Both the position numbers and the translations under genes were made by a program. From assembly GCA_973895155.1 (NCBI GenBank), contig OZ316895.1:13503186-13567185 (forward strand): DNA of 64,000 nucleotides. The letters are read 5' to 3'. How positions within the stretch are numbered: the stretch's first letter is position 1; every line of letters starts with the position of its first letter. Below the pieces are notes generated by a model. The model was not told the origin of the DNA. It was given only the letters and a program-made list of their open reading frames with translations, and made no database searches. Source of the DNA: Marsupella aquatica. Its lineage: Eukaryota; Plantae; Marchantiophyta. Of this stretch, positions 24,999 to 64,000 are shown piece by piece.

Positions 24999-26484
24999 AG
25001 TCGCGGAACTCGACTACCTTAAGTAACACTTAGCTCCGGCGTCGCTGACTCCGACGCCGAGCTCCCTTATGGTCCAGGCCCGGATAGGCCATCCAGGGAG
25101 GACTTAGCATGGGGAGACTTGTGGGCAATGAGACGTGGCACTAGCGAGGCAAGGGGCCAAGTTGGGGACACACACTAAGGACTTGGACTAGCCTATGGCT
25201 GGTTAGGTCAAGGGGAAATGGGCCGGGCTCAAGGGTGGCCGTCCTATCGAATGGGCTTTGAGTTATGAGGGCTTGGGAGTGAGCTCCTCTTGGGCCCAAG
25301 GCCAATGGAGTTGACGCCATTGGCAACAGACGCTTGGGGCGCAAGTTGTGGCCCGATCCGGGTTGGGCCGGTCGGGGGCCCCGAGCGGCGATCAGACCCG
25401 AGGGCCTAGGCATGAGCACTGGGTCGGCCCGGTCACAACGGGCTAAGGCACTCCGCTTGCGGATGCCTGTCAAGAAAGTTATGAGCGTTGCCAGTTGGTG
25501 GCGCGCCCATTGTGCGCGATGGGATCCGGGTTGGGGGCCAAATGTTAGGGACCAAAGCTGGTCCGGGGGTGGCAGGTCTCGAGAAGCATATATGAGGGGA
25601 GTGGTGTCTCCCTGGGGGCTAAGGGCGAGCCGAAGTCATGAGCCGCGGCGGTCGCAACAATAAGGGAAACCGCCAAACGGAAATGGCGATATCTTCCCAA
25701 CGGGAAGTCCGTTGGAGGACTTCTTAGGTGCGTTGGAAAGCTCTTGAGGAGGGCTCCTGAGCTCAGCTAGGTCTGGGGGTGCCATGGGTTCTCGTGGTTT
25801 GCGGGTGTTAGCTCACCCATTTGCCAAATCCTGCCGAACAGCAGCCAAGCCGCGTTCAGCCTCCTAAGGGAACTTGCGTTGGGGAGGCAAGGCCAAGTAG
25901 GTATGGAGGCTGAGTCCCAAGGGCGCTCAGTCCTTAGACCATCAGTGGGGCAAACCGGGAGTCGGTGTTAGAGTCGGGGCCGTTCTAGTCCCGGCGTGTT
26001 GAGACAAGCTTGGGACAAGCTTTAGGACCAGCGACGCTACTTGGGCCATGAGCATGTTCTGAGGTCAGGGCGGTCAGTTGGTGATGGATAGGTACGAGGG
26101 GGAACCCGGGCCGCGCCCAAGAAAGGAGCTGTCTTGGACGGACAGTGGGTGTGGGTTCTGGTTCCGGCTTATGGCATCGGGAGGACCTATCGCTGACCTA
26201 TTTACCAACGTCTCTTGAGCTTGAGTTAGGATGCTAGACTTGGCGAGTTCTAGATCCGGTGGGGTTACTTACCGAGGTGCTTGGGTGTTTGTGCAGACAG
26301 TGAGGACCGTTGAGTAGCGGTCGTGTAGGTGAGCAAGTGCAGCTTCGTATGGGAGTGGCCGCGGGTGCTGCTAGAGGCATTTGGATGCTTGCTCAAGGTA
26401 TTCCGTGGAGGCGTTCGGGCATCAAGGGCACTTAGGCGCAAGTGCTGGGATTGGTGAGGGCGCTGGGTGGCGAGGTCCACCACT
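24999..26484 (+). mobile_element. Inner copy (1486 bp) of the same AGT...ACT element, inserted in opposite orientation into the outer copy
   Basis: Begins AGTCGCGGAACTCG and ends CGAGGTCCACCACT, with 5-bp TSD CACGC at 24994-24998 and 26485-26489. It is a reverse-complement match to the outer copy throughout (ORF pairs 24664+/26265- and 25334+/26971-). TATA-like GCATATATGAG at ~25587. Confidence 0.88.
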
Positions 26485-27551
26485 CACGCCCACTGTCCGT
26501 CCAAGACAGCTCCTTCCTTGGGCGCGGCCCGGGTTCCCCCTTGTACCTATCCATCACCAACTGACCGCCCTGACCTCAGGACATGCTCATGGCCCGAATA
26601 GCGTAGCTTGTCCTAAAGCTTGTCCCAACACGCCGGGACCAGAACGGCCCTGACTCTAACAACCGCTCCCGGTTCTCCCCATTGATGGTCTAGGGACCGA
26701 ACGCCCTCAGGACTTAGCCTCCCTACCTACTTGGCCTTGTCTCCCCAACGCAAGCTCCCTTGGGAGGCTGAACGGGGCTTGGCTGTTGTTCGACAGGATT
26801 TGGCAAGCGGGCGAGCTAACAACCGCAAACCACGAGAACCCATGGCACCCCCGGACCCATCTGAGCACAGGAGGGTGTAGCCCTCCTCAAGAGCTTTCCA
26901 ACGAACCCAAGAAGTCTTCCAACGGACTTCCTGTTGGGAAGATATCGCCATTTCTGTTTGACGGTTTCCCTTAGTGTCGCGACCGTCGCGGCTCACGACT
27001 TCGGCTTGCCCTTAGCCCCCAGGGAGACACCACTCCCCTCATATATGCTTCTGGAGACCTGACACCCCCGGACCAGCTTTGGTCCCTAACATTTGGCCCC
27101 CAACCCGGATCCCATCGAGCATAATGGACGCGCCACCAACTGGCAACGCCCATAACTTTCTTGATAGGCATCCGCAAGTGGAGTGCCTTAGCCCGTTGTG
27201 ACCGGGCCGACCCTGTGCTCATGCCTAGGCCCTCAGGTCTGATCGCCGTTCGGGGCCCCCGACCGGCCCAACCCGGATCGGGCCACAACTTGCGCCCCAA
27301 GCGTCCGTTGCCAATGGCGTCAACTCCATTGGCCTTGGGCCCAAGAGGAGCTCACTCCCAAGCCCTCAGAACTCAAAGTCCATCCGACAGTCCGGACGGT
27401 CCGGACGGCCATCCTTGAGCCCGGTCCATTTCCCCTTGACCCGACCAGCCATAGGCTAGTCCAAGTCCTTAGTGTGTGTTCCCAGCTTGGCCCCTTGCCT
27501 CGCCAGTGCCACGTCTCATTGCCCCCAAGTCTCCCCATGCTAAGTCCTCCC

Positions 27552-27853
27552 TGTTGAACTAAGACGTCATTCGCAACGACCATACAACCATGACTTATTC
27601 CATGCACACGTAGTCGACACAATCTCTACGTGGTTCACCTCTTCTCCAAGGCTACGTCCACACGAACACACATGCTCTCCCTCTTCCTCAAGTTGCTCCG
27701 TTATATTGAGTAAGCACCACACACCAGCGGCTTACACTAGCCTTGGTATATACAAGGTCATACACGACTAACCTAACCTCAGCTAAGACGCTAACTGTGG
27801 TTAGCCTAAGTGCTGTAACCTTTGAGTCACAAGACTAAGAGAAATCCTTAACA
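27552..27853 (-). repeat. Copia 3' LTR (302 bp)
   Basis: TGTTGAACT...CCTTAACA, near-identical to 34160-34483. Confidence 0.95.
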
Positions 27854-34159: not shown

Positions 34160-34483
34160 TGTTGAACTAAGACGTCATTCGCAACGACCATGACTTATTC
34201 CATGCACACGTAGTCGACACAATCTCTACGTGGTTCACCTCTTCTCCAAGGCTATGTCCACATGAACACTCAAGCTTTACTTCAAGAGTAAACGAACACA
34301 CATGCTCTCCCTCTTCCTCAAGTTGCTCCGTTATATTGAGTAAGCACCACACACCAGCGGTTTACACTAGCCTTGGTATATACAAGGTCACACACGACTA
34401 ACCTAACCTCAGCTAAGACGCTAACTGTGGTTAGCCTAAGTGCCGTAACTTTTGAGTCACAAGACTAAGAGCAATCCTTAACA
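34160..34483 (-). repeat. Copia 5' LTR (324 bp)
   Basis: TGTTGAACT...CCTTAACA, adjacent to the PBS. Confidence 0.95.
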
Positions 34484-35719
34484 CTCCCTGGATGGCCTAT
34501 CCAGGCCTGAACCATAAGGGAGATCGGCGTCGGAGTCAACGACGCAGAAACTAAGTGTTAAGGTAGTCGAGTTCCGCGACTCCCATAAACCCGAGGCCTT
34601 CTCCCTGACCAGGAAATAGGAGAAATTGTTTTACATGAGTGTCTGCAGTGTTGTCAAGTTGGAGAGTCTTGCTAGCCTTTGAAAGACTCTTGCTAGTCCT
34701 TGAAAGACTTATGCTACGGTAGCCCTTGAAAGCTTCATGCAACCCTTGTGACTGGGAGCCCTTGTGACTGGGAAAATGGGAGAAGTGGTTGTCATATGGC
34801 TGTCATAATCCCCAAACCATACTTTTGACCCGGAAGAAATGTCTCATATTAGTGTATATGAGAAATGCTGTTGTTTCCATGATCTGTTGACGCTTGATAT
34901 ACGCACGAATTTTCATAGTACAAAAGAAATGTCATTGGCTCAGGTATACTGATGGAAGGAAGATTAATTTGGTAACCAACCCTCACTGACTGAATGACTG
35001 ACTGGCTCGGAGAGAGCCCTTGACCCCTTGTTGTAATTAATTTGAACTGTTCTTCGGGCTCCACGAGACCATGATCCCCTGCCGAGTGGCTGTACTGGGT
35101 TGTACAGTACTGGAGTTACGCTCTTTTAAAAGGACTACCCAGCCAAAGGGTGACTCATGTTACAGTAAGGGGGTGACTGGGTGCGGGAATCGGCGGTCAT
35201 TACGACCCTCTTCAGTCTAGAATCGCCACCATCATCATCGTCGATCGAAGCATCATCAGCGATAGCAAGACATTATGCTATCCGGATCTTGAAGTGTTTC
35301 GTGAGGTGGAGTTAATGACGATATCCTTCTCTCAGAAATTATTACTGTACTGAACGGAGCGCAATAGCGCATGACAGGAAACATCATCCATTCATCAGGA
35401 TTGCATTGGACTGGCTGGACTCATTAGGCATGAATCTGGACTCCCACGTCAAGTCATTACGAAGGCCCAAGAGAGAGAGACACAGCAGCGGCCGGCCGGC
35501 CATCAGTACAATTTTTTTAAGTCGTAGGCAAAAACTGAGTGGATAAATTAATGACCGACCCCAGGCGGGGTTGCAAGATACGGCAAGTTATGGTACTGTT
35601 GCTGCTGTAGTGTACTTCATACGGTTTCAAGCTCCGGTATAGTCGTCTGGGTGTTTTACCTGCTTGTGTACTCTTACTGCAGTCTGCGATTTGATGGATT
35701 CCATTCTGTTCAACTCAAT

Positions 35720-46930: not shown

Positions 46931-48965
46931 TGGCAATAATTAGCTGTGACACTTGCCATAAGAAAAAAATCGTTCTTCTTTTAAAAAATTAATTATTCTC
47001 CACTTGGAGTCGAGTCCACGACTCCAGAGCTAGGAATATTATTTATCGTTAGATTCCGGCTAATCTAGCCAGGCCAATGGTAACCAGAAAATCTAGACAA
47101 TTTTAGCCGAAGTGATTGACTTTTTAGAAAGTTGGAATCTACTGTACCCAATTTTCGTCACTACAAATAAACACTGCTTGTGGGTCCCGCACTTCCGCTA
47201 TACTAACCACCGCACCAACTTCGCCTCTTCTTTCAGCTCTAACCTAATCCAACAGTCCGTCCGCTTCGACGAAACCATCCCCAAAGCGGCAAAGGCCAAG
47301 AAATTTGGAGCCCACGTGATCCCCCCCGCCAAGGCTGCCGCCAAACTGCCCCAAGAATGAATCATGATCAGTTCTGCCAAACGCTCCGCTCCCGCAACCT
47401 CAATTGCGCTGTCACTCACCGTACCCGCTCCACAGTTACCGTAACCAACCGGGAGGGTTAGCGATGCGTCACTGACTCACTGATTGCAGGATCTTAGTTA
47501 CGTTTCCGGAAGATTATTTAGAAGTTTCCGATCTCAGGGATCCAGAATCGACCGTCCATCTAGAGGCAGCAGCGGGCAGGCTGGACTGCTGGTCTGCTGG
47601 AGATGGAGGTCGTGTCAGGGCGAGGCAGCCATTATTCATTATTAATGATGATGATGATTCCATGCTTCCGGGCTGGTCGGTTTGCGGAACGAACAAAAAG
47701 AGATGGAGCGCAGTGTGTTGTAAGTAGTAGTAGTAGAGAGTGGGCCATGGTTGTTGCAGTAGTAGCTGCCCTGCCCTGCCAGTTTGCCACGCTGCTTTCC
47801 CCACACGCGCATGCAGAGACCGCCTGCCCGACTGCCCGACTGCCCGAGCTGACGACGAGGAAGGCGGAAAGCGCGGACGCGAGAGGGCAGCGGGACGCCA
47901 AAACAATTGAAATGGTCGATCGTTGCAATTCGCTCCATTATTGAACCGACTCGACGTCACGTAGCTCTGGAGAATTTCAGTCGAGCTCCTTCTCGAAGAG
48001 AGTGCATCATCACTGGTATAGCGAACTCAGGGAGTGAAGAATTGAGTAGTAAATGCAGAGCGAAGGAGGTCGACGAGTTGAGAAGGTTTGTGGGCTGGAT
48101 CGATCGCGGAGCTCGTTCAAGAAGGGAAGAACGAAGCGGTCGATGAAAAGGAAGGGAGAAGGACAAAACATGAGGAGAAAGAACGAGACGGAGGTGCGGG
48201 ATCTGTACGCTATGAGACTAGCTAGATTTTGGCTGTAATAAACAAAGCGCACCAGCTTGACCTGCATCGGCGATCGCCAAGTAGATTGGTGAAAGGGGAC
48301 TCGAGGAAGTAAGGAAGGAAGGGAGAGGGAGGGACTCATCACGTAGACTTATTCGTCGGGCGAAACCTGGGAAGTAGATATTCCGAAGGAATTTGTCTGC
48401 GGAATGACATGTCCAATGTTGGTTGAGTGAGATTCGTTGGAATACCGCGTTAGAAGAGGCTGAAGTACGCGACCGAAGGATCGACGAAGTTGGAGAGTGG
48501 CGGATTGATGCTCGGACACGCAGCCTTGTTTCCTGGGAAGGGAGGTGCTGTGGCAGGAGTGTGTCTTTCGATTTGTGTTTCGGTCGCCCAGTTGTGGTGT
48601 GACAGGACCCGGGGGGCTTTTAGTTGTAGTTGTAGTTGTTCTGTTGATATGGGCGCAACTATTACGCTCAGAATCGCTGGTCAATCCACTGTCCAAGTCG
48701 GTGGCGGGAGGGGTGACATTTGTAATCCATGATGAGTACGCGCAAAGACGTTTTGGGAGGAAGGAATCGGTACTGGAACTAATGAAGTTGTTGTCCACTC
48801 CTTGGGATTCATATCCGAAGTGTAGATGTGTTCGCCGCTTGATGTAAATTGTCGAAAGGTACGCAATTCGTGTTCGATATCTTGTTGGCAGTGGAAACTT
48901 TGAAAGTAGAGTAGGGAAGACAGGACAGGTTACCCTGGAGGAAGATTTTTGTATAGACGGAATCG

Positions 48966-50287
48966 ATGGATTGTATATCTGGTGCTCCTCCGACTCCTGA
49001 CGCCAATGCCGCTCCCGGAGAAGAGTGGCAGTCTGTTCCACTAGAAGATTCGTCGCGATCGGAGACGGAGTCTCTTTTTATATGGAACCAGGGGAAGCAG
49101 ATGAGAGAGACACCTAGAAATTTGAATTATTCCCTGTGCGGACTCTCGAAACTTACGAGCTGGTATGCTAGCGACGAGACCAATGCCTCGAAGGTAGACT
49201 GCCAGTACATCACCAGTAAGGCGTCGGAAGACTACAGTGGAGTGGATGAGGTGCGATTATCCATCCATGGACTGGAGGATCCCAAAATATGTTCCGAAAA
49301 TGCGGTCTGCAAGACCGGAAATAAGGTAATTATGGACCCTGGCCCTGTCCTTGAACCTGGCGACGACGAATGCCTTCCGCTGCTCCAGCAAGTCCGGGCT
49401 TTCATCAAAGGCGCCAAGCTTTCTTGTACAGGGCTTCTATCTGGGGATGGTAAGTCTATTTTCAATGGTTGGAACTCTTTGCTGCAACGAAGCTTCTCCT
49501 TCAAGTCGTCTGAGACATCATCCGAGGGGGAGCTTCTTTGCAAGAAGAGGAATTGTTCCGGAATTTCGAGAACCACGTCCTCGCCGATGCCTGCATCCAC
49601 AATTTTCAGCACTGCTGCAGCCGACACAGTTAAGGCAAAGACTTTACTGGCAAGGGATCCGGCGTCTAGGGCGGAGGCGTTGCCCCTTGCTCACTATCGA
49701 CCTACCGACGGAGGAGTCTGGAAAGAGGGGGATGCGAAGACAGGGCAGTCTACAGCATCCGCCCAATCGCCTGTTAATGTGAATAGCAAGAAACCTCCCA
49801 AACCGCCGAGGCATCCAGGGAGATCGGTGTCAATGGACAGCGCTACTATTGCTTCTCAACGCGCTGCGAAGAGAATCAGGGACAGGGCGTCAGCGAAACG
49901 AAAATCGAGGGGTGCTGCTAATGCTGCTGCTAGCGCTGGTCTGACTCCACTCGTCGCGCTTGTCCTCACGATTGGATTTGGCGTCCTCATGGTCTTCCAA
50001 GGTTTGTTACAGACTTCTCGTTGTGTATCCTCGTATTTCTCTCTTTTAGTGACGTATGTAGTATGTGGTGCCAATCGCTGTCAATGTAGCTGGCAGAGCT
50101 TGGTCTGCCTACAGAGTAGTCGTTCAGTTTTCGATAATGTTGAGATTCCACCCACCTTATTTCTGGTGTTTCCTGTCTTCTCCTTGATAGTGTGGTTAGG
50201 CGATAACTTACAGCAGATTACCCTTGCATTGCAGGTGTTTTCGTTCAAACTAACGTGTCCTATGGTAGAAATACCGATAGCGATGCC
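48966..50287 (+). CDS. Plant-specific protein with a disordered N-terminus, KKPPKPPR motif and C-terminal transmembrane helix (unknown function)
   Basis: The large exon 48966-50001 ends KKPPKPPRHPGRSVSMDSA...basic stretch...LVALVLTIGFGVLMVFQ-G|GTTTGT. This layout matches a family of uncharacterised plant membrane proteins (KKPPKPPRPP..SLD..TM..FQG). Probable next exon 50235-50287; the final exon (~50528-50670) is not resolved. The 441-aa ORF runs into the intron. Confidence 0.75.
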
Positions 50288-51354
50288 GTAAGCGTTGCTG
50301 CCAATTCTCAATTTTCATTACCTGTCAACAAAGCTGGCTCGTTTGTCAGTCGTCATCCAATGTAAGGACGTGACCCAGTTGATCAATTTTAGGATTAAGT
50401 CAACTTTGACGCTCTAAGCTTTTGGTGAAACTCTGATCTTCCGGCTGTAGAAGTCTATTGTGTGGCAGTCATATTGCATTGTAGGTCTCTAGTACCTTTG
50501 TACCTGACTCTTCGTTTCACGTTGCAGAGACCCAAATTTACCAGCCTCTATAAATGTCGACGTGAGCGATTCTGAAGCGATCCTCAGCGGTGCATTGCAG
50601 AAGTCGATGACAGATCTTCCTTGGTCACGGAGTTCGTTATTTTCACAAGTGAAATCCGCGTCAGGATGACCCACTTGGACCCTTTTTGTCCTTACACCTG
50701 TACGAGGCCTGTCCAGAGTGATTGCCCTACTGGAGTGGATGTTAACATTCTTAGAACGATTCTTTACCTTCGATCGACTGGAGGAGGTCGGCACATTATA
50801 TACATCAGCGTGGTTTAGCTCATTTTTCCCACAAGCTCTGAACTTAACGTTTTACATATGTAACTCGTGATGAAGGGTATCAGGTGAGAATTGGCGACGT
50901 GGCTCAACTTTCCTTGGTTTCCTTCGCTTCTGACGTTTCTTAACTTACATTGATTGCGCACGAGGGTAATGTCATGGTCGATGCCATAATTTGACTGCCA
51001 GCTCGCTAACCTTTCTGTTGTCTGCTGACTCAGGTCTTCTTTGCCTATTTGGGAGGAGCTCGACCACCCTTTGTACAGGTGTAAATTGCCTGGTTTAACT
51101 CAATTCTTACGGCTTCGGAAGACTGAATAGTAGAACAGAGTAGAGTAGAATAGGAAGAATGGATGGATGGAGCCGAAATCAGGTACCAGTCTGTCTTGTA
51201 TATGTTAGTACAGTTTTGAATACCCTGTAACATAACTAATCCTTCATCGATTCTGAACGAGGGAACGAAACCCTCCGCATGCTGCTTCTCTGGGTATATC
51301 ACGGCAATAAGTTTGGCGTGTTAGGTATTGTTGCGCCCGCCGGTGATTCCCTGG

Positions 51355-51478
51355 AGGCGCATTTCTTACTCTTTCGTGTATCGAGAAATTATAGCTTATG
51401 AGTGACAAGTTATTTAGAGAAAAGGCGCATTTCTTACTCTTTCGTGTAGCGAGAAATTGAACTTATGAGTGACATGTT
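51355..51478. repeat. Tandem duplication, 68-bp period
   Basis: AGGCGCATTTCTTACTCTTTCGTGTA.CGAGAAATT...CTTATGAGTGACA.GTT at 51355 and 51423. Confidence 0.85.
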
Positions 51479-53689
51479 TAGGGAAGTGGCAACTCATGGC
51501 AAGTGTGCTGCTCAGTGCCATTCCATGTTAGTGCACGTGAAAGCGCCCAATTGAACTCATGTGGAGTCCAATTTGTGCTGAGGTGATACTAGCAAAGGTA
51601 CTATTGACCATAGGCAAAACCTCGTGGTATGCCGGAATAAATTGCGGCGGGAAATTCGCCTCAAATTTACTGAACTGTCTCCATTTCTCCGGTCATTTCT
51701 GTACGGCGGGTTAGGTACTTGTGTTTTTTCGATTGGATCGTTGGACTGTGTTTCGTTGTTTCCTTTTGTCTACCTCTCGTGCTTTGTACTTCAAATTTGT
51801 GTTTCCTATGTAGAGTTGCACCACTAAACAGTATTAGCAGACCGTTAGTGTTGCACAATTCCGGGAACGGTCCTCAGCAGAATTAGAAAAGGATTTGAGT
51901 TTTCATATTCTTCCCGTGTTACGGGGTCATCTGATACTCATGAGCATTGCGAGATCTGCGACTCAGATCCATTCGCACGGCCGGTTTGTCTTAAAATGGA
52001 GCTTTCCCTCGTGTCCTCGCTCACAATGTAGTAGTCTATTCGTTCTGTTTTGTTATTAGCAGACGGAAATATTGTGGCATATGGCGTGACTATCGAATTC
52101 TATGGGAGAACGAACATTTATACTGAAGGTTACGCTGACTCCTCTCAAGTGAGCTGATTCCCCTCACTGTGCATCCAATGGGGGATCCAAAGATGGGAGA
52201 CATTCCAAGGCAAGCTTCTCGGGAGTAGTGCGACGTGTCGTTCAGACCCACTGAGTCTTGCTTAGTTTTAAGCTCGCCTCAATTGCTTGCCAGATAAGGA
52301 TGCCTCGTGATCCGACCTAGTTTTACTCTGAAATTATCGATCCTCACATACGCGTATGAGTAGAGTTTTTGAACGTCAGAAAGAAACTCATGTCGATGAC
52401 CACCAGCGAAGCACCTGAGCGTAGAATCCCTAGCTGATGTGTCCTAGGGCTTGAGAATTTGATGTCGGTTTTGTAGACATTACGTAAGCTGTGATCGTCT
52501 ATGTAGGGTGGTACTACTGTTAATTTTTTAGTTTTGGAGCGTGGTATCCGTCTTTAACTGTAATTGTCAGTGGCATATCGTTGGTTGGCCGTCTCGTAGC
52601 CTCTCCATAACATCACCGGACAAGAGAACTTTGTGGCTCTAACATGCTCAACTGGGGTTCTTGTCCTTTCGTGGTATCCTTTTCCCCTTGTTTGAAGTTG
52701 GTGCCAGCGAATCGAGACCTTAGAACCCGTCTGATTCGCTGGTCAGTTGGCTCTTTTCGTTTTAGATGCTTGGCCGTCTTTGGAACATTAGGGGACTAAT
52801 TCAACCTTGATTATCACCTCGGTGGCATCTAACCGTTTGAAATCAACAGCACTTCGGAAGAATGCCGTGCTTTATGGCTTCAGTCTCGATGCTGTGAGAT
52901 TCCTGATGATCCTTAATCAGCTTGTACACTTGCCTCACGAATAATGTTCCACCCTATGTAACTCAAATAGCAGCGACCTGGTGAGGTTCAATCTGCTATG
53001 TGTGGCCCATTCAACGCCCCATCAGCTTTCTTGGTTGTCGATGAATCCTCTCACGCTCATTCGATTCAATTGTTCGATTCAATTGTGATGACATTTCATG
53101 CTCCCTTGGACTTGCTTGTTGAATTCCGTCAGACGGACTCTTCAATTAGAGGATAGGCATAGCATGTTCACGCCTACTTGTGTTTGCTCATTGATCCCTC
53201 CCCTGGAGCATGCCTGATCATCAGCATAGGTTCGTCCCTGTCGGCGTACCCTAGCATTCGACGGTTTTATTTCACGTTAAACCAACCATATCCATTCCTT
53301 GCGTAGGAAATCTGTAGAGTAGAAACGCGAAGGAAATCTCCATGATCTTCCGAATATTAAATTTGCTTAATGACGGCACAACAGATTGGTGATTTCCCAG
53401 CTAACGCTCAAGATGAGGAACGCTTTGGAAATTTACTGTTCTCTGAAGTGTCGTTTTGAAGTTAGAAATTTCTCAACCTTACTGTGCATTTATGTGTCGA
53501 TTGATAGTGTTCATCGAAAGCTTAAAAATGTCTTCCCTTCTGACTGTAGTGCAAACTATCTTGGTATTTTAAAGGAAAACCCAGCCCTCTATTGCGTGAT
53601 TTCAGGCGAGGATGATTTTAAGCCAAAGAAACGAAATAACCCTCGTTACCTAAAGCGTTGGTGCGATGGCCAACAGACAGATCTATTGG

Positions 53690-54300
53690 CCTCTCATATA
53701 CTCTTGAAGCGAATGTATTTGCAGTGCCCATGTGACCAATGCTTTTGAAGATTGATGGCCAATGGCACATAGAAACTTAGTAGCCAGAAAGGATTTAATT
53801 GCAGAATTCCTCAGCGCCTTGAAGGCCCTGTGACATCTTCCTGATCTGATATGTTCGAATGTATTTGCAGTGTTCATGTGAAATCTTCTGAGTAGCCAGA
53901 CAGGATTTGATAGCAGAATCCCCCAACACGCTGAGCTATGATATCGTCCTGATCTCATATGGTCTTGAAGCGAATCTACTGCAGCGCCCATGTCATCAAT
54001 GTCGTTGAAGCTTGATGGCCAATGGCACATGGAAACTTCTGAGTAGCCAGACAAGGTGTGATAGCAGAATCTATTAATAGCTTGAGGGCCCTGTGATTCC
54101 TTCCTAATCTGTGATCCAATTGGCAATTCAGGTGCATAAGAAGCTTTCTAATTCAGAAAGTAGGCCAAAGCCAATGAGAGCTTGTTTGCACGAAGAAAAG
54201 GAACTGAAAATGCGCAATTCATGTACATTAAGCGCCTTTCTGATCCAGAATTAGGCCAAGCCAATGAGAGCTTGTTTGCAACAAGGAAAGGAACTGGAAC
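53690..54300. repeat. Patchwork of diverged local duplications
   Basis: CTTGAAGCGAAT..GCAG.GCCCATGT..TTGATGGCCAATGGCACAT.GAAACTT..GTAGCCAGA occurs 2-3 times (53703, partial 53860, 53963). TAGGCCAA(A)GCCAATGAGAGCTTGTTTGCA..AAAGGAACTG occurs at 54161 and 54252. Confidence 0.75.
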
Positions 54301-54950
54301 ATTTCTGCATTACAGACCAACCAGATTGGAGCCGAGAATTCTAAACTATGATAAAGGATTAAAATCAACCAGGAAGCCAGAACGCATCCAACTAAAATTG
54401 AAGCTTCCCTAATAGCTTGTAGCCTTCATTCTTCAGTATTCACGAGAATTTAATTTTGCCCCAACTAAACTCTTCTCAGCTGAAATTCAATCCATTGCAG
54501 TCCGGGGCATTTGAAATCCGTGATTGTCGGCCAGGTAAACTCATTAAAGGTGTGGATGGGATGGAATGGGCAACAGGGCAGATAGTGGATGGGTCTTCCA
54601 CAACAGCTTTCTCTGGAGCTTTCGAATTGTTGGCTGGCATTGGCGAACATCCTTGAACAAGGGTTTCTAGTGACAGTTCTGGCACTTCCATTGGCATGGG
54701 TGCAATTTCTTTGAAGAAAAACTGAGTGAAGGGGTGAAAGTTGTTCAGTTTTTGGTGTATACACTCAACTTCCGCCCCCAACAATTGTTTTTCAATTTCC
54801 CACTGCAGCACCTGCAAGGCATTTGGGCATATTTCTAAAGGTTTAGGGGGAGTAAAGGCATGTTTGTGCATATTTTGAAAGGTCCATGCCAAGACCCTTT
54901 TGTGAGGTCCATGGTGTTTCAAATTATAATTTGTTTATTTTGCAAAGAAG

Positions 54951-56357
54951 GAATATATACTGGAAACTAAAGCCCGGATGTACCCTCCACTTTGTCTATG
55001 AAGCCTAGATGTACTTGCAAAGCTTGGATGGACTTGCTCAAAACATTTAAATTAACTCAGATAACATTGTTTACACTTTTGACTGAAATGTGACCTGTAA
55101 ATGTCTCCTTATCATTTGCAGCCAAAATTCATTACTGTATCAAACTTGTTTGCTTAGTAACTTAACGTCTTGACTACCTTGAACCTGCAATACGTCAAGA
55201 CCGTCATGTCATTACTCAGGATCACCATGACATCTTTATTACTTTCTCCCCAAGGTAATCAAAGTTGTTAACTGTGATCCGCAAGTTTTTATTTTTGGTG
55301 TAAAAATAACAATTGTTTTAAGCAGTCCATTGGGATGGGCAGGGACAATGTCTCTGTCCATCCTGGCTTTTGTTTCTATATACTAAAACAATGCTTCTTA
55401 TTGTGGTTTCCACCTGGTTTGAATGGGACAATTTGACAAACCAAAATATATATTGTAGATATAATTCTGGTTTGGCAAAGACATAAAACTTATCTTTTTG
55501 AGGAAAACAGTGGACTGGAAAGATATGCATGCATGCAGTGTACGGGGAGTGCATCACATTCCAGGCACGACAGCCTGAAAACTTCATATGAGGCCCACAA
55601 ACAGTGTTATCTTTTGCCAATTGGTTGCACACACGTGGTCTGGCTAGGTATAAATATAACACCAGGAGAAACAACTCAGAACAAACTTTAGTTGGTAAAA
55701 GTTTTGATGGCGATCCACCAGAGTCTGGAAGTAAATCAAATTAATGATATCAGATCCCCCCATTCTGGATGAAAGTCTGTTTACAAAATGTCATATGGGC
55801 AGGAATAAATCATGTTTGCTGGCTGAAACAAAATGAAAACTCCAATACTATTTGATCGGCCAGAAAGACCTCTCCATGCAATCCCCCCCTATGCACGCCT
55901 TGGCCTCCCCCTCTGCACCTCACTAATCATGCAACGCAAAAGAATCCGGCTAATATAAATAGGCAGCCTTTTGGCAAGGCCAGTATGAATATAAGAAACT
56001 AGAGCCCGGAGCATCTATGAAGCCCAGATAGACTGGCAAAGCTTGGATGGACTTGCTCAGAAAATTTAAACCGACTCAAATAACACTGTTTACATTTTTG
56101 ATTGAAATGTGACCTGTAAACAATCTCCTTACTATTTGCAGTTATTTCAATTACATTACCCACCCCATATTCAACCCCGTATTCAGACTACTTCACTACC
56201 TTGAACCTCAAAGACTTCATTACCCAGTATCACCATGAGATCTTGATTACTTTCTCCCCAATGTAGTCAACTTCATCAATTGCAACCTGCAACCAGTTCA
56301 TGGGCAAGGGACAATGTTTGGGTCCATCCGTGCTTTTGTTTCATAAATATAAATACA
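54951..56357. repeat. Diverged direct duplication of ~400 bp at ~1.0 kb spacing
   Basis: 54951-55390 and 55988-56357 share CTATGAAGCC.AGAT, GCAAAGCTTGGATGGACTTGCTCA, TGAAATGTGACCTGTAAA, ACTACCTTGAACCT, ATCACCATGA, TTACTTTCTCCCCAA and GGGACAATGT..GTCCATCC. Confidence 0.8.
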
Positions 56358-56520
56358 GCCTTTTTGCAAATGAGAATCGCAACCCAAGTTATACCACGGC
56401 GGGAAAGGCCAATCGCCCACCGCGAAACTGAGAAAGTTTGTAGCGACAGTTTACCGTTGCGGTTTGGAGGGGCAAGATGAGAGATTGTGGACAGCGGCGG
56501 CATCATGGCGGTTTACTCGC

Positions 56521-56718
56521 GTCCCTATAACTGGAGACGCGGGCAGCCCTTCGCCTTCTACAACCCATCGGGCAGTTTGCATCGCGTATTATTCTTGGAG
56601 TCTCTGTTGTTACAGGACTCGCGGACTCGCGGGCAGCCCCACCGATATGATTTTATTCGGTCCCTGTTTCTGGAGCCGCGGGCAGCCCTTCGCCTTCCAG
56701 AACCTATCGGGCAGTTTG
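56521..56718. repeat. GC-rich direct repeats upstream of the recombinase gene
   Basis: CTGGAG.CGCGGGCAGCCCTTCGCCTTC...AACC.ATCGGGCAGTTTG at 56531 and 56670, with a partial CGCGGGCAGCCC at ~56628. Confidence 0.8.
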
Positions 56719-56970
56719 GCGGTTTAGCGGTTGAGAAGCGAGGGCTAAACCCATGGCGAAGGCGAAATTGCGATAATTTTACTCTTTTTGTAATTTTGCT
56801 CTTGTTCGAGTCCAAAATAATCCTAAAATAGTGCCTAAACTAGGATAACCCTCCAAGAGTAGCTAGGGGGCCAAATTCTCATAACCCCCAGGGCAGACTA
56901 GCTCGGGAGTTATGGCTCACAGATAAAAAAATATGAAGAAAACACTACAGCAGGAGATTATGTATACGGT

Positions 56971-57104
56971 TAAGGACCCGGGGTCTCCCTTAATGAGATA
57001 TAAAGGCAACCGTATATACGGGCGACCTGCATATGCGGGGAGACCGTACCTACGGTATCTATGGGAGACTTTTTATCCCATTAAGGGAAGACACCAGGTT
57101 CTTA
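56971..57104. repeat. Branched palindrome: ~35-bp imperfect stem enclosing three short hairpins
   Basis: TAAGGACCCGGGGTCTCCCTTAATGAGATATAAAG pairs with CTTTTTATCCCATTAAGGGAAGACACCAGGTTCTTA. The loop holds CCGTATATACGG, CCTGCATATGCGGG and ACCGTACCTACGGT. Confidence 0.8.
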
Positions 57105-57644
57105 GTTGTTCGTTAAGGTCATTAAACACTGATAAAACTCATTTTAGTATGCGCGCCTTCCTTGCATGCACATCCAGTCCGTCTGTTTTTGAATTTAGGG
57201 TGACCATGTTGAATCTACGGCCCACATTAGCCGTGGATTAGGGCTCCGGAAGGCAGTATACCGTGGAGGGAGTACCTAGTTCCGCTCATTGAGCATTCGT
57301 CTCGCTCTCATCCGGCTGTCTTGTTGTGCCGCAGTGCCGCTGCTCCCCCGTCTTCGATACGCTCATCGATGCTTGCTCGTCGTTTCGTGTTCGCTGCTGC
57401 TCGCCGTCTCGTGTTCGCTGCTGCTGCGCTGCTCGCCATCTCGTGTTCGCTGCATTGCTTTTCGACATCCCGCTAGTCGCTGTTGCTGCACTGCTTTTGA
57501 CATCCTGCTGCTTGCTATTGCGCTCTGTCCAGCTTTCATTACTCGCCGTCTTGCCACTTGCATTGTTCATCACGTCCCGCTATTTGCATTCTTCCCGCCA
57601 TACTGCTACTCGCTCAGACATTTGGTGTTTTAGCTTTCTGGTCG

Positions 57645-57783
57645 CTGCTCAGTCTTTGCTTTCGCTGATATAGCGGTGCTGTATTAGATCTTGCGTTGCC
57701 ATTGCTCCACAATATCTGCTCAGTCTTTGCTTTTGCTGATATAGCGGTGTTGTATTAGATCTTGCGTTGCCATTGCTCCACAA
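57645..57783. repeat. Tandem duplication, 2 x 71 bp, in the presumed 5' leader of the recombinase gene
   Basis: CTGCTCAGTCTTTGCTTT.GCTGATATAGCGGTG.TGTATTAGATCTTGCGTTGCCATTGCTCCACAA occurs twice, followed by a CAG|GTGAGT donor at 57790. Confidence 0.85.
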
Positions 57784-58329
57784 CATCAGGTGAGTATTCT
57801 ATCCTTTAATGTTGGTAATGTTGCCTTGGTTCTCAACTTCTGCTTCATTTGATGTCTTTGGCAGGTTTTCCTTTGAAATTCCTTCTCGTTTATGTTTGTT
57901 TCACTTAAACTGACTTTGCATGTCTGGTTATTATGCTACAGTCTGATACCTACCAGCATGAGCCTATGACTTCAAAACTGCATTGCGACCTTGCGAATCT
58001 GACTCCTCTGATAGTTACAGGGTCGCTCATCTTTTTTGGATCAAAGCAACCATCGCCCTCTCTTGGTTGGTGACTTTGTGTTCGTTATTTGTATTCTAAC
58101 TCCTGATCTATGAGTCCGTGGTGTACTTCAATCATTTAGTTATGTCTCACTGCCATCTTATTCGCCTGGTACAATATTCAAATCGTTCTCACCACCTTGC
58201 GTTGTCGCCACCATGCGTTCTCATACAACACCGAATTATCTGTAACTCGTTACATTCAATGGTGCGATTTTATTGTTTCAACGGGATATGTCCTCTCCAT
58301 CGTTCAACATTGGTTTGATTGCTTATGCC

Positions 58330-60724
58330 ATGGCTGCAAGTGCAAGCGACAGTGGCAAAGAGGCCAGTTCAGGTGGGAAGCTGATACTTCAGGAGCCTTC
58401 TTCGTTGTTGCCCAGTAGTTCAAACAGTGCAGACCTGCAGTCGCTAGATCATGCTTTTTCCGACCTGTTTAACAATCCGAATGTCAAAGAGCAGACATGC
58501 ACCTCATAGATGCTCTGCATTTAGACCTTGAATCTACAAAGCTCGAGGAAGGTCCGGTAGTGCCGAGCCAGGTTGTAGTAACTGTTGAAGGAGGACCATC
58601 TTTCGAGTTCCTAGCTGAGGATGAATCTTTTCAGCGTACGCTTGCTGATGGTGGAGTGAATGCATCGGCATCTGTTGACAAGTGGGCTAGGAATCGCTTG
58701 AACAAGTTTTGTGTGTTTAAGAGCCTGATAGAAGTCACTATTTTACTCGAGGACGTCCCACCGCATGATTGTAGTGTCCTGCTAACCAAGTTCTTTGAGC
58801 AAGTAACTAAAAAAGATGGAGCTTTGTACCCAAGTCAGACGCTTATGGGTCTGTACCGTGCATTCCACCAAATCCTACGGCAAAAGCAAGAAGCTCAAAT
58901 CCAGCAGACCGGTAAGGATGAGCCAATTTTTTGTATGAGGACTAGTCCTGTGTTCAAGCAGGTTGGTGTTTCATGTATCTTGGCCATGGAACGCTCTAGA
59001 AGAGGAGGCACAAACCAGCCTCGAAAGAAGGCTGCTGTCATCACTCTCACTGATGAGCACACTATTCTTTCTCACACTTGCACAAGTGTGTCACACCCAA
59101 GGGGCTTGTAGCGTAGAGCTGTCTTTTATTTGCTCTATCAATTTGCCATCCGTGGAGGGTCTGAGTTATACAACTTGGGAAAGAAAGAGTTCAGGTTTGG
59201 TGAAGACGAAGCTCAAAGGTTTGTACAATATGATGAGCGTTTGTCAAAAAATTACAAAGTGTCCTTGGATCGATACCAAGATGAACACTTCCATCCTGCA
59301 GTGACTGAACACGATCAGGATATGGTCAAAACACTTCAGACCCTGTTTGATCACCTTCTTGTGTCAGCCCGTGTGTCAGGTACCTTCCTGTTCTATCAGT
59401 GCATCGACAATTCTAGAACTCATGCTTGGTTTTCAACTTTATGTGTTTCTGCCAAGAAGTTAACCGGGTGCATGAAGGAAATTCATCAAGAATGCGGCCT
59501 CTTGACTGAGAGTATCACCAATAAGTCTGGGCGAACCACTTGTGTGACACGAATGTGTTTGGAGGGCGTTCCTTTGAATGTTGGCATGCAAATCACTGGT
59601 CACAAGAGCCAAGGGGCATATACTCGATATGACAGGTCGATTGAGGCTCAATTTTGTGCTGGTCAACGGTGTGCGAGAGACGGCAGTGTGTGTGAGGACA
59701 CTGTGAGGGAAGAGACCGACCTGTTTAAGAATAAAGTAATTAATGGTAAATTCCTTGTAGCAGAGGATGATGATGAGCTCGCCTACAAAGAAGTCTAAAC
59801 TCAACTCGGATGGCGCATTCATTGGTAAGTTGACTTTGTTTGTATCTTGAAATTTTGAACACTTAAGATTTTTCAGCTATTAACTCTCTTAGTTACTTTT
59901 TTGGTTACAGATCGAAGCAAGTCAAAGGAGACACCAATCGAGGCACCAATCGAGGTGCCAAAGCAGCTAGTTCAAGTTCCAGGCATTCCACCAGTGCCAC
60001 TTCCAGTGGTCTCTACGGATACAGTCGTCGAGAACTCTACAATGAATACGAAGCAGGTTCAAATAATCCTACTCTATGCTTGTTAGATATTGCTCTAGTC
60101 TTGTGACTCATGAGCTAACTACAGTTAGGCTAACTCGGGTTAGGACTTAGCTAATGTTAGCGGTAGTGCTGTTGTGCATATAGCCAGGGCTGATGCCAGA
60201 CCCTGGGTGGAACTTAGGCTCATTGTTACAGAGCTAGTTGAGAGATAGGGAGAGCTTGTGCTGTGGATGCTTGGTATGGCCAGTCGGCCTAGAGTGCAGT
60301 AAAGCTCTTGTGTGTTCCCGTGGACGTAGCCTCATGTAGAGGTGAACCATGTATCTCTCTGTGTCGACTATTGTGCGTTGGATGGTTCATGGGCTTGCCG
60401 TTGCGAATGTCATCTATGCTCAACAATGCTATCCATTTTCCTGATTGGTTTTTGAGTGACAGAATTATATATTAATACTCACATGCAATTGATGTGGAGG
60501 ATTGTGACACTCAGTCAGGAAAGGAAGACTTTGTTGTGTTCAAGGGTGCTAAAGAAGATCCTCTGATGAGAGATATTGATTGGAAGGACTAGGACAACTT
60601 TGGTGTCTGGTGGGACAAAAAGAGCAAAGTGCAAAATATCAATCCACTTTTTGCAGTTCTCGGACATATCGGGTCTCTGAATAACTATACACTCAATATT
60701 AGTATTGGGAATCTGAATAATTGA
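58330..60724 (+). pseudogene. Crypton/DUF3504-like tyrosine recombinase, copy 1 (spliced, disrupted)
   Basis: N-domain LLTKFFEQVTKKDGALYPSQTL..LYRAFHQIL. Catalytic motifs FAIRGGSEL (R), YDERLSKN (K), ITNKSGRTTCVTRM (K-x-x-R), ITGHKS (H) and AYTRYDR (Y). Frameshift ~58497, TAG at 59109, frameshift ~59780. Intron ~59825-59910 (GTAAG..TTACAG); a second intron from ~60057 holds a solo LTR. The last exon ends GSLNNYTLNISIGNLNN* at 60724. Confidence 0.85.
60081..60425 (+). mobile_element. Copia solo LTR (345 bp), related to the LTRs at 27552 and 34160
   Basis: TGTTAG...CTCAACA with TSD ATGCT at 60076-60080 and 60426-60430. It shares TAGTCTTGTGACTCA, TTAGGCTAAC, AGGGAGAGC, TGTGTGTTC..GTGGACGTAGCCT, AGAGGTGAACCA, TGTGTCGACTA and CGTTGCGAATG with the reverse complement of the Copia LTR. 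Confidence 0.92.
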
Positions 60725-61787
60725 GTCTAGATGATAGATTTTGTTCATTGAGACTAGTTAGATCTCACAGTAGGATAGTATATAGGTTAGCCATTGAGCC
60801 TGCATGGCACACTTGGATGACTTAGATTTAAGAAGTTATGAGGCCAACATAGCTTGCGAGGCTCTAGTTAAAGGCAAGTTGCGAGGCTCTGGCTGTTGTG
60901 CTATTGTCCATGATTTTGTTACATATTAAATAAAGTTTTTGTGCCCACAGTGGCAATTCATCATTTATTATAAAAGCTTGCTTCTCTAAAATTTGAATTT
61001 GCATTTTGTTACCACAGTTCCACGTCGTAAAGACAATCACCTCAAAAACTATGTATACCTTGCAGACGGTATGTTTATACGGTTTGTTTTTAATGATATA
61101 TAATCCTAAAAAAAAGTGCTTACATGTCAACATGTGAGTGAACCAAAAACTGAATGAAAGACCAGACGTCCTTAACAATGTTAGAATAACTGGTTTCTCG
61201 GTCTGCAATGGGTGTGATCCATTTTGTTAAGGTCGATTGGTGGTGTTAAGTTCTTTCAGTCCATTCAGTGATTGACACGTTTGCACTTTTTGGGTTGATA
61301 ATATCTCATGATTTTACACCGTATGTTAATATGGTATGTTCATTATCACATACGGTCACATTCTCAATAATGACGCGCCCTCAACAGAACCGATCCAAAT
61401 TGAACACGTTATCAATGGCGCGCCCATAGTGAAGACTGTAAACAATGGTGAATCTCCCACAGTGGAGAGTCTAAACTTTATTTACATGATAAAAAAATTA
61501 CAATGGGATTATCTCATCAAGTAGATCTATCTATTGATAATTCCCGTGTTTGTATAAAAAGAATGCCTGTAAAGAAGGGACGTCTGATCAATTCCCGTGT
61601 CGGTAAGAAAGAATGTTGTGAAATGTCTATGAATGATGAATGTGCATAACGTGAATGTCTAATTCTGCGGATAAATGCCTAACCGCCTTACTAATATGCA
61701 ACGCAAGTGCCTCTTGGGCTACAATCTACAACTAATTACAGTGCTCCTATCAAGTCTGCCTCCGCTGCTCCATGTCAAGTACTTACA

Positions 61788-63657
61788 CTAGCCACCAAAT
61801 TTACCAATGTTAATGGAGATAGTGCAATTGTTGAGTGATTGCACTTGGTGAAGAGTGCTTGAACTGGATTCACAATCACAACCCTACCACCTTGATGCAA
61901 GTTCTGGAAATGATCGTCCCAATCATACTTCTCGCCCAATCATCAGAAAACCAGTCAACCTGACTAGTATCAACATTCAGAATAGGACTTCCATCACTTT
62001 GAGCAGCGTCTTCAACAGCTACCACCTCAATCTCCATGGGCATCAATCCACCAGTCGCCTCTTCAACTTGTGTTGGGCCTAAATTGTGGATTACAGTTGC
62101 AGGAGCCACTGCTTCAACACCCTGAGGACTGACATCTTCAGCTCCATCAAGTCCTGGTCGAGAGTACATGTTGGTCACAATCGACTCATCTGTTACAAGC
62201 ATCAACCGGAAAACATCAGAAATTGTCTCAATTGCAAAGTTGTCAAGCAATAATTGCAGAATGGGACTAAGAACATATTTAACTTCGTCTGCCTTTGGCC
62301 TTTTGTTTGGTGATAAATCATCCTCAAGGCCTTGGATGACCTTCTTCTTGAACCGATCCGTTTCTTCCTGACATTTGCCTTGAAAATCTGAGGACCCGTT
62401 GGTACAATTTTGGGCAGCCCTTACCTTGGAGTCTGTGCTGCGATCATACCAAGCATAAGCACCCTGGCATTTATGCCCAACTTATTAGCATGCCAATAGG
62501 TGCCGGCACTCCTTCAGTAGCCATACGTGTAACACAAGTGGTTCTACCGGACTTATTTGATACGCCTTCCATCAATAGACCACATTCTATGTGAATCTCT
62601 TTCACTATGCCACTTAAGTTTTTGACTGACACGCGTTGTGTTGAATACCAAGCATGCGTACGTGGACTGTCGATGCACTGATAGAACAGAAACAAACCAG
62701 CAATAGGTAAATGAGATATTAGTCTTTCTCATTGTGGAAACCATGTCAGGATCGTAGCTCGTTATAGCTGGGAAGAAATGCTCATCTTGATAGCGTTCAA
62801 GACCAACTTGGTAATTCTTTGAGAGTCTCTCATTGTATCTCACGTAATGCCCATTGTCATCAGTACCCAAAAGAAAGTCGCTCTTAGCAAGCAGATGTAG
62901 CTCAACACCTCCTCGAATGGCAAACCAAAATAACAGAAGGTATACTGCCCAACGTTGAAGGCCTTGGGGATGAACAATGGCTATGCATTCATGAATGAGT
63001 CCATATCGTGGCCTCATCAACTAACAAAATTATAGATGCCTTCTTCCGAGGCATATTCGCACCATTCCTCCTCAATTGTTCCATAGCTAAAACACAAGCA
63101 ACCCCTACGTGCTTGAATAGAGGACTCTCGCGCATGTGGAAGACAGGTTTGTCTTGTCCGCTTTCACTTACTCTGACTTCTTGTCTTTGTCTAATGACTC
63201 TATGGAAAGCGCGATATAATCCCATAAGAGTTTGAGTTGGATAGAGAGTCTCGTCTTTCTTACAAACCTGCTCAAAAAAATTTGTCAGCATCTTGTTGCA
63301 TTCGTGTGCAAGGAGATCCTCAAAGCGAACACTACTGTCCCAGCCTTTAAACTCTCAAAAATGATTCACTCTATTGATTGCCCATTGATCGACAGCTGTG
63401 CTTGGATTTGAACCACCCTCGGCAAGGGACTTCTGGAAATTTGGATCCTCCTCCAAAAACTCAATAGGCGCTTGACCAGGCACAATAATAACGAGAGGTA
63501 CCTTCTTTGGACGCTCATCCACATGCAGGGAATCAAGAGTGGCATTAAGCTGCAGCAGCTCTGCCTCACATTCATCTATGTTGACCGCATTGCTCATCGA
63601 CGAGATGCTAGACTTATCATCCTCCTCTGGGTCTGCAATGCCCTTCAACTTGGACAT
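61788..63657 (-). pseudogene. Crypton/DUF3504-like tyrosine recombinase, copy 2 (diverged paralog, disrupted)
   Basis: MLTNFFEQVCKKDETLYPTQTLMGLYRAFHRVI; WFAIRGGVEL; YNERLSKNY; VSNKSGRTTCVTRM; GHKCQGAYAWYDR (after a frameshift); C-terminal SLNNCTISINIGKFGG* ending at 61788. TGA at 63355-63357, several frameshifts, and a probable intron ~62191-62282. Confidence 0.85.
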
Positions 63658-64000
63658 ACCAATACTAAATGATGCGTGAACCATAATCGATCACGGAAAT
63701 TCAAAGGCGCGCAAAAGGCAAGGCATCAGAATCTCCCCTGACAAATTGATGACAAAAGTGCCAAACGCATGGCGTCGATTGAGTTGACTGAAATCGAGCA
63801 AGTTGAGAGAGAGCAAACCTGCTAACAGAGAGTGCACACAAAGTCACAAACTCAATGCACACACCGACGCCAACAAAAAGTTTGTGAAGTGGATTCAGGT
63901 GGTCCATCTTCCCTGCCTTATAGAAAGCCACGTTGCCTGCAGCCGGGACAGAAATGACCATCACCGTTAGATCAAGACCATGTAGCCGCCTTCCAATCCA

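What the first reader, a model, noticed from the sequence alone, without database searches (positions are those of the whole stretch)
56390..64000. Tail-to-tail pair of diverged Crypton-like tyrosine recombinase genes in a land-plant genome: a possible two-recombinase mobile element
Seen: two homologous tyrosine recombinase (YR) genes, 58330-60724 (+) and 61788-63657 (-), converge across ~1.06 kb. They keep the same blocks (EFLxED..FQ..LAxGG, KKDxxLYPxQTL, AIRGG, ERLSKNY, YQDEHF, NKSGRTTCVTRM, GHK..AY..YDR) but differ widely elsewhere, so this is an old paralog pair and not a recent inverted duplication. No RT, RNase H or gag is nearby, which argues against DIRS/Ngaro. Established: intron-containing, YR-only DNA transposons are Cryptons (fungi, oomycetes, diatoms, animals; the source of DUF3504 in ZMYM, QRICH1 and KCTD1), and related YRs mobilise fungal Starships. 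I do not know of a well-described land-plant Crypton lineage or of Cryptons carrying two YRs. Inference: this may be a plant Crypton-like element, possibly using two recombinases in the XerC/XerD manner, that extends beyond the window end.
Basis: partly seen in the sequence, partly recalled or inferred. Interest (0 to 1): 0.85.

Follow-up and report, generated by a model that had tools for sequence, protein, structure and literature searches.

The report
Two back-to-back liverwort Crypton transposons
Two broken jumping genes of a recombinase-carrying (Crypton-type) family sit tail to tail, 51 bases apart, in what is likely a leafy liverwort; each has its own end and also occurs elsewhere without the other, so they are two separate elements rather than one two-enzyme element, and they show the TTAA-bounded ends of a land-plant lineage that I found in no paper searched.

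Summary
The two tyrosine-recombinase (YR) genes are real, convergent, 56% identical and both broken. The two-recombinase reading is not supported. The 1-kb gap holds two homologous 3' ends facing each other, each closing in CC-TTAA (61172-61175 and 61227-61230), 51 bp apart. In sequencing-run contigs, other copies stop matching at exactly these two places and continue into unrelated flanks; no second pair was seen. So these are two single-YR elements. A (56970-61175) is complete, TTAA at both ends; B runs off the window. The protein folds like Cre and belongs to a clade of liverworts, mosses, ferns and lycophytes nearest to DUF3504/CryptonA, marked by Lys instead of His in H-x-x-R. Likely mechanism: excision as a circle and integration at TTAA (inferred). 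This scan had already noted plant Crypton relics on other DNA (two notes); new here are the mapped ends and target. The 51-bp spacing is unexplained. Side lead: probable domesticated copies in Marchantia and in lycophytes, the latter fused to an XRCC4-like head.

The parts
56970..61175 (+). Element A: complete, decayed single-YR Crypton-type transposon, 4206 bp including the solo LTR, TTAA at both ends
   Evidence: sequence; right end from contig break points; left end from symmetry with the right end and one empty-site-like joint 56962->61181 in run X4
56970..56986 (+). Left terminus of A: TTAA plus a 13-bp arm, imperfectly inverted to the right arm (9 of 13)
   Evidence: (I19); the inverted repeat alone is not beyond chance (17 of 11013 TTAA pairs score 9 or more)
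56976..57100 (.). Long imperfect palindrome just inside the left end of A
   Evidence: DNA fold -29.9 kcal/mol, z -6.4, 0 of 200 shuffles; I1
57645..57786 (+). 71-bp tandem duplication in the 5' leader of A
   Evidence: D3, 96% identical
58288..60724 (+). YR1 pseudogene; catalytic R, K, K-x-x-R, H, Y all present; one frameshift, three internal stops
   Evidence: model folds like Cre
60081..60425 (.). Solo LTR-like insertion (345 bp, TG...CA, 5-bp duplication ATGCT) inside YR1; very high copy number
   Evidence: summed contig depth over 50,000 against about 25 for single copy in X1, and a related copy without it (joint 60066->60426)
60913..61175 (+). 3' trailer and right terminus of A (ends CC-TTAA at 61172-61175)
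   Evidence: homologous to the trailer of B; loose ends at 61175/61176 in all 4 runs
61176..61226 (.). 51-bp host spacer between the two 3' termini
   Evidence: bridged without differences by X2 record 10, 61138-61266
61227..61498 (-). 3' terminus (TTAA at 61227-61230) and trailer of element B
   Evidence: loose ends at 61226 in 3 of 4 runs among the rows shown
61788..63684 (-). YR2 pseudogene; same catalytic set; one internal stop, four frameshifts; no intron seen
61227..64000 (-). Element B: second single-YR element, 5' end beyond the window (expected near 65,000 if built like A; inferred)

Best explanation
The stretch holds two separate, decayed single-recombinase DNA transposons of a land-plant Crypton lineage, each ending in TTAA, which likely moved by recombinase-made excision as a circle and re-integration at a TTAA site and landed 51 bp apart at different times. 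Shown: the two 3' ends and their dispersed flanks, TTAA at both ends of A, the Cre-like predicted fold with a full catalytic set, the broken state of both genes. Inferred: four copies of one element's own YR bind the short imperfect inverted arms inside its two ends, recombine across the TTAA cores, release a circle whose junction is an imperfect palindrome around TTAA, and insert it at a genomic TTAA, preferably GTTAAC; one TTAA comes from the circle and one from the target, so the repeat is constant and is not a variable target duplication. The symmetric core would allow either orientation, which explains a convergent pair. Why B and A lie so close is not explained; a shared target preference plus local chromatin or capture near a relative's end are the candidates.
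For: Homologous trailers ending at the same motif: score 75 against null mean 28.9, max 51, 0 of 500 (first seen). Contigs leave the window sequence at 61175/61176 (X1 2, X2 2, X3 4+2, X4 2+2 contigs; agreement among flanks 0.59-0.83) and at 61226 (X1 3, X3 5, X4 4; agreement 0.51-0.59) (24 of 116 rows shown). An A-type copy aligns over 60428-61175 and then has 446 nt not on the laid stretch (X3 record 17, X4 record 25); a B-type copy has 230 nt on 61226-61455 and 1486 nt not on it (X1 record 2). None of the 6 joints listed links 61175 to 61226. X4 holds a joint 56962->61181 that lacks A. Model pLDDT 92.3, best matches Cre/Tre (E 1.7e-8), then Tn1549 integrase. Nearest non-plant relatives carry DUF3504+QRICH1+Phage_integrase. 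Short constant direct repeats and a circular intermediate are the published Crypton model (PMC3212892; PMC8969392).
Against: No circle junction or activity was seen; both copies are dead. A's left end rests on symmetry and one imprecise joint (13 bases short of a clean empty site, one run, table cut). The 13-bp inverted arm is not significant by itself. B's 5' end is outside the window, so an upstream RT or other gene in B is not excluded. A 51-bp spacing is unlikely under uniform insertion: about 0.04% to 1.3% genome-wide for 50-200 copies in an assumed 300-600 Mb genome (genome size and copy number assumed). The 1486-nt flank of X1 record 2 could lie on the window outside the laid stretch. 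Every run holds two haplotypes, so some flanks may be allelic rather than separate loci. The 4-bp core is shorter than the 6-8 bp spacer typical of YR sites (PMC3212892).
Confidence: 0.82

Rival explanations
1. One mobile element with two convergent recombinases that work as a XerC/XerD-like pair.
For: Convergent arrangement, old divergence (56% identity), both keep the catalytic set, and the closeness is hard to get by chance.
Against: Two complete homologous termini face each other in the middle; each end occurs with unrelated flanks and no second pair was seen; YR1 is closer to a Calypogeia protein (66%) and a Logan protein (78%) than to YR2, and the clade has at least three comparable branches, not two partner types; a joint lacking A exists.
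Confidence: 0.04
2. Two separate elements, but the adjacency is directed: an incoming element is captured next to the end of a resident relative because its recombinase binds the shared subterminal sites. Such pairs could later move as a composite using the outer ends.
For: Low copy number (about 2-6 related ends per run) yet 51 bp apart; both 3' ends share a subterminal motif (AAAAGTGC, then TGTCA) that also shows in a third subfamily's loose end; target-specific Cryptons are known (CryptonV in microsatellites, PMC8869645).
Against: Only one pair is known; the other ends seen have flanks of median 42-255 nt that lie on neither trailer; one coincidence among many scanned windows is what a genome scan would pick out; no composite copy was seen.
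Confidence: 0.2
3. An old inverted duplication of one element in place, followed by divergence, or a pair of domesticated host genes.
For: Homologous trailers and genes in inverted orientation. Probable domesticated relatives exist in Marchantia and lycophytes.
Against: Both genes are broken many times; copies 83-95% identical to each type exist elsewhere, so each belongs to its own recently spread subfamily; 40% DNA divergence between A and B is far older than the roughly 3% between host haplotypes; a joint lacking A exists.
Confidence: 0.03
4. The YR genes are the 3' genes of DIRS/Ngaro-type retrotransposons whose other genes decayed or lie outside the window.
For: In such elements the YR is often the last gene (recalled); B's upstream part is unseen; A's 5' palindrome echoes internal repeats.
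Against: A is complete and has only 1.3 kb before the start, without any Pfam hit; closest relatives are DUF3504 Crypton proteins; no long or split repeats.
Confidence: 0.03

Closest known systems
CryptonA / DUF3504 elements of animals (Kojima and Jurka 2011, PMC3212892)
   Same: Single YR, no RT; nearest non-plant sequences by HMMER, tree and Atlas; same R-G-x-x-E, K, G-H and Y spacing.
   Different: His of H-x-x-R is Lys (56 of 65 plant-side rows K, none H; 27 of 27 DUF3504-type rows H). Animal Cryptons were reported without terminal repeats; A has TTAA at both ends with short imperfect inverted arms. DUF3504 score stays under Pfam's cut-off. Extra C-terminal motif after a long linker.
Glomhoppers, CryptonA of Glomeromycota (PMC13465315)
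   Same: DUF3504-related YR with catalytic residues, mostly broken copies, found in a lineage that lives with bryophytes.
   Different: Boundaries and repeats could not be found there; here they are mapped. No sequence identified as a Glomhopper was in my tree, so the relation was not tested.
CryptonF and CryptonS (PMC3212892)
   Same: Short constant direct repeats at both ends (4-6 bp), proposed circle intermediate.
   Different: No GCR1_C or C48 peptidase hit; repeat is TTAA, not TATGG.
Cre/lox and Tn1549/Tn916 integrases
   Same: Predicted fold; arms around a short core; excision-integration through a circle (Tn1549 structures with circular intermediate).
   Different: 12-15% identity; eukaryotic, no excisionase or conjugation genes.
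XerC/XerD
   Same: Two related YRs.
   Different: No evidence for two partner types or a shared site; the genes belong to separate elements.
Starships (DUF3435 captains)
   Same: YR-driven DNA transposition with short direct repeats (PMC13465315 passages).
   Different: No DUF3435 hit for the 12 plant-side proteins of alignment A1; about 4 kb, no cargo, YR not at the 5' edge.

Membership tests
Crypton (order) | encodes a tyrosine recombinase | tested here: met
   Cre-like model, pLDDT 92.3, Foldseek E 1.7e-8; weak Phage_integrase hit E 3.6e-4
Crypton (order) | no RT, RNase H, gag or DDE transposase in the element | tested here: met
   met for complete element A; for B only the part inside the window was seen
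Crypton (order) | short constant direct repeat (4-6 bp) at both termini | tested here: met
   TTAA at 56970 and 61172; TTAA at B's 3' end; other copies align through it. Left end less firmly mapped
Crypton (order) | no terminal inverted repeats or long direct repeats | tested here: inconclusive
   no long repeats, but a 13-bp imperfect arm (9 of 13) lies inside A's ends; not beyond chance by itself
Crypton (order) | dispersed copies with unrelated flanks | tested here: met
Crypton (order) | excision as an extrachromosomal circle | not testable with these tools
   only contigs available; both copies are dead; no such joint among the rows shown
CryptonA | DUF3504 domain above the Pfam cut-off | tested here: not met
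   YR1 15 bits against 29.7; 4 of 12 members of A1 hit at E up to 0.1, best 4.4e-5; a Riccia and a Ceratodon relative do carry the family
CryptonA | R-H-R-Y tetrad | tested here: not met
   R-K-R-Y: His replaced by Lys across the plant clade
CryptonA | nested within the CryptonA clade | tested here: inconclusive
   plant rows (25) and DUF3504-type rows (28) are split by a branch with SH-aLRT 100, but the tree has no outgroup and is the quick search
Two-recombinase (XerC/XerD-like) element | both genes always travel together within one pair of ends | tested here: not met
Two-recombinase (XerC/XerD-like) element | two deep, reciprocally distinct recombinase types | tested here: not met
DIRS/Ngaro | RT-RNase H and long inverted or split direct repeats | tested here: not met
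   element A; B's 5' part not testable
Starship | DUF3435 captain at the 5' end of a large cargo element | tested here: not met
   A is 4.2 kb

The most novel reading that the evidence does not exclude
A land-plant Crypton lineage, ancient across liverworts, mosses, ferns and lycophytes, uses a topoisomerase-IB-like K-x-x-R active site and a lox-like TTAA-cored site, and homes to the ends of its own relatives, building tail-to-tail pairs that could move as composite two-recombinase units; the same lineage was domesticated at least twice in plants, once fused to an XRCC4-like DNA-repair head.
Probability: 0.15. Interest if true: 0.8.

Novelty: new variant of a known kind. Interest (0 to 1): 0.52.

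Why it matters
Cryptons are described from fungi, oomycetes, diatoms and animals, and for the closest group (CryptonA, Glomhoppers) no ends were found in the papers read. This locus gives concrete ends, a TTAA target and a diagnostic active-site change for a land-plant lineage, so the circle model becomes directly testable with unbroken relatives (Calypogeia, Riccia, Ceratodon proteins keep the motifs). A plant-native recombinase with a short target could interest genome engineering. The probable domesticated copies would be a plant parallel to ZMYM/KCTD1. The headline claim, a two-recombinase element, does not hold, and the family's presence in plants had been noted twice before by this scan and is visible in UniRef names.

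Tried and rejected
Nesting of A inside B's 3' flank was my first reading (note 1) and was dropped when B's own terminus appeared at 61227-61230. Related-locus scans found nothing: metagenome contigs 0 of 198 and 0 of 61 candidates, viral 0 of 12, prokaryote genomes 0 of 59; the patterns were narrow, so this shows no absence. Sequence search of the PDB gave 1 chance match at E 0.4. The first fold, from 8 sequences, was useless (pLDDT 44). Two VIA-align jobs got no answer because the machine was busy. No Rfam match in 52000-64000. No RNA holder listed: expression and the two candidate introns are untested. A hairpin at 56385-56450, considered as a terminus, is not significant (z -1.3); 56300-56969 shows no homology to either element end. 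Similarity between the 5' leaders of A and B did not exceed shuffles (38 against max 38). The careful tree search did not finish; the quick tree is used. Literature: 10 searches listed no paper describing land-plant Cryptons or Mp5g04240; listings were cut (20 of 1737, 30 of 211). Repbase, Goodwin 2003 and Kojima 2020 were not read, nor any supplement; Kojima and Jurka's additional file 1 (terminal repeats) could bear on whether TTAA ends are already known.
Full report
Observation. The window holds two homologous genes in convergent orientation, and a profile of the family finds no third copy. Read with X at their breaks they are 55.6% identical over 394 residues. Both are pseudogenes: YR1 (58288-60724, +) has one frameshift, three internal stops and a 345-bp solo LTR with a 5-bp duplication; YR2 (63684-61788, -) has one stop and four frameshifts. 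YR2 has no sign of an intron; two GT-AG candidates in the YR1 linker are untested.

Host. The ORF at 48957-50291 is 69% identical to a Calypogeia fissa protein and 39-43% to Marchantia and Riccia proteins (6 hits), so the host is likely a leafy liverwort. Contigs of four public runs tile the YR region without differences at the same depth as neighbouring host DNA (X1: 21-29), one bridges the left junction (56103-57709) and one the middle spacer (61138-61266). The locus is therefore neither contaminant nor chimeric. The four runs come from two studies, and the best may be the source of the window.

Protein. Pfam gives only weak hits (Phage_integrase E 3.6e-4, DUF3504 E 0.026). A model from 123 sequences has pLDDT 92.3 and matches Cre/Tre best (E 1.7e-8), then Tn1549 integrase and Xer proteins. 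HMMER over 1.84 billion representatives gave 623 hits, 150 listed. No seed-plant name appeared, but most hits are unnamed. The more distant hits carry DUF3504, QRICH1 and Phage_integrase, and the Atlas places the core with DUF3504/integrase clusters at 0.98. In a quick tree of 53 rows (of 189 proteins hit, 73 covered 230 residues or more; near-duplicate cluster members were dropped; no outgroup) 25 plant-side rows are separated from 28 DUF3504-type rows (SH-aLRT 100). Both window genes keep R, K, R, H and Y, but the His of H-x-x-R is Lys: 56 of 65 plant-side rows have K and none H, while 27 of 27 DUF3504-type rows have H; 31 of 123 rows have a gap there, and I set the groups by hand (10 by Pfam, 14 by tree, 3 by rank). 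Lys at this place is the state in topoisomerase IB and telomere resolvases (recalled), so it need not abolish activity.

One element or two. The 1-kb gap is not a linker. The last 263 bp before 61175 align with the reverse strand of 61227-61498 (score 75; null mean 28.9, max 51, 0 of 500), and both end in CC-TTAA followed by CAA. Two 3' termini thus face each other across 51 bp. Run contigs confirm both as boundaries (24 of 116 loose-end rows shown): related sequences leave the window at 61175/61176 in all four runs (2, 2, 4+2 and 2+2 contigs) and at 61226 in three (3, 5, 4 contigs), with low agreement among the flanks. An A-type copy aligns over 60428-61175 and then runs 446 nt off the stretch; a B-type copy has 230 nt on 61226-61455 and 1486 nt off it. 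None of six joints links the two ends. A's left end is placed at TTAA 56970 by a 9-of-13 inverted arm (not significant alone: 17 of 11013 TTAA pairs do as well) and by a joint 56962->61181 in X4 that lacks A but is 13 bases short of a clean empty site (table cut). In the tree YR1 pairs with a Calypogeia protein (66%), YR2 is one of several 44-58% branches; nothing suggests two partner types. Limits: each run holds two haplotypes at differing ratios, so flank counts are not locus counts; the 1486-nt flank might lie on the window outside the laid stretch; B's 5' end is unseen.

Mechanism. Published model: Cryptons have short direct repeats that serve as recombination substrates, excise as circles and integrate elsewhere (PMC3212892; the repeat is alike across copies, PMC8969392). 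Element A fits: TTAA at both ends, short imperfect arms inside, so that joining the ends would give a palindrome-like site around TTAA. The base outside TTAA is G on the left and C on the right at all three ends in the window; other copies keep it at 61226 and in some, not all, at 61176, so GTTAAC is a likely but not strict target. Circle formation and catalysis are inferred. A 125-nt palindrome inside A's left end (z -6.4) and a subterminal motif shared by A, B and a third subfamily are candidate protein-binding sites, untested.

Unexplained. Uniform insertion makes a pair within 100 bp unlikely (0.04-1.3% for 50-200 copies in an assumed 300-600 Mb). Directed insertion near a relative's end is possible (target-specific CryptonV is cited in PMC8869645), but there is one case only, picked from a large scan.

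What is known. Papers seen: PMC3212892 (parts 1-2 of 7 and passages): no land plants in its distribution table, no terminal repeats in animal Cryptons. PMC13465315 (abstract, sections 5-7, passages): Glomhoppers, boundaries not found. Passages only: PMC12130899, PMC10288648, PMC8371274, PMC8869645, PMC9033089 (a land-plant TE review with 0 occurrences of Crypton), PMC11630846, PMC8969392. Ten searches listed no description of land-plant Cryptons; Repbase and supplements were not seen. UniRef already labels some Marchantia, Ceratodon and Riccia proteins DUF3504, and two earlier notes of this scan report plant relics of the family; a search of those notes for TTAA termini found none.

Verdict. 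It works like a Crypton and meets the order's tested features; it fails two CryptonA marks (Pfam cut-off, R-H-R-Y), so I file it as a separate plant lineage next to CryptonA. New variant of a known kind; interest 0.52.

Noticed in passing
proteins P0047, P0049 (Selaginella LOC9657615, LOC9653486), P0060 (Diphasiastrum O6H91_21G046100), P0057 (unnamed): Lycophyte genes join a roughly 200-aa N-terminal domain to a YR of this family that has lost its catalytic residues. The Atlas places that domain nearest unnamed plant clusters (0.92, TM 0.80) and then XRCC4/XLF/PAXX heads (feature score 0.87, TM 0.62-0.68). A likely old domestication, fused to a DNA end-joining scaffold fold; possibly more interesting than the finding itself.
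   Followed up: partly
proteins P0027, P0205 (Marchantia polymorpha MPTK1_5g04240 / MARPO_0141s0031; M. paleacea Mapa_012797): Conserved between two Marchantia species within one 90% cluster, keeps the N-terminal and R-G-G-x-E parts but lacks the G-H motif and has R-P-G-R: likely a domesticated Crypton-derived gene. No paper names it.
   Followed up: partly
window 60081-60425: Solo LTR-like repeat of extremely high copy number in this genome (summed depth about 2000 times single copy).
   Followed up: partly
window 56976-57100: Long palindrome inside A's left end; its right arm resembles the element's 3' terminus.
   Followed up: partly
window 54995-55390 and 56014-56357: Two diverged copies (79-88%) of a moderately repeated sequence about 1 kb apart, left of element A; not identified.
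   Followed up: no
   Followed up: partly
window 24663-27853 and 34160-34581: Large GC-rich inverted repeat (about 1.07 kb, 91%) with pieces repeated at 34.2-34.6 kb, around a decayed copia element at about 28.2-32.0 kb; probably the LTRs with a rearranged or nested insertion.
   Followed up: no
window 1549-2709 (-): 386-aa ORF with no Pfam hit, transposon-like in appearance.
   Followed up: no
window 9384-9950 (+): First exon of an NAD-dependent epimerase gene, likely GDP-mannose 3,5-epimerase (name recalled).
   Followed up: no
window 48000-52000 in runs X1-X4: All four runs hold a second haplotype about 3% different, at ratios that differ between runs: polyploidy or mixed samples.
   Followed up: no
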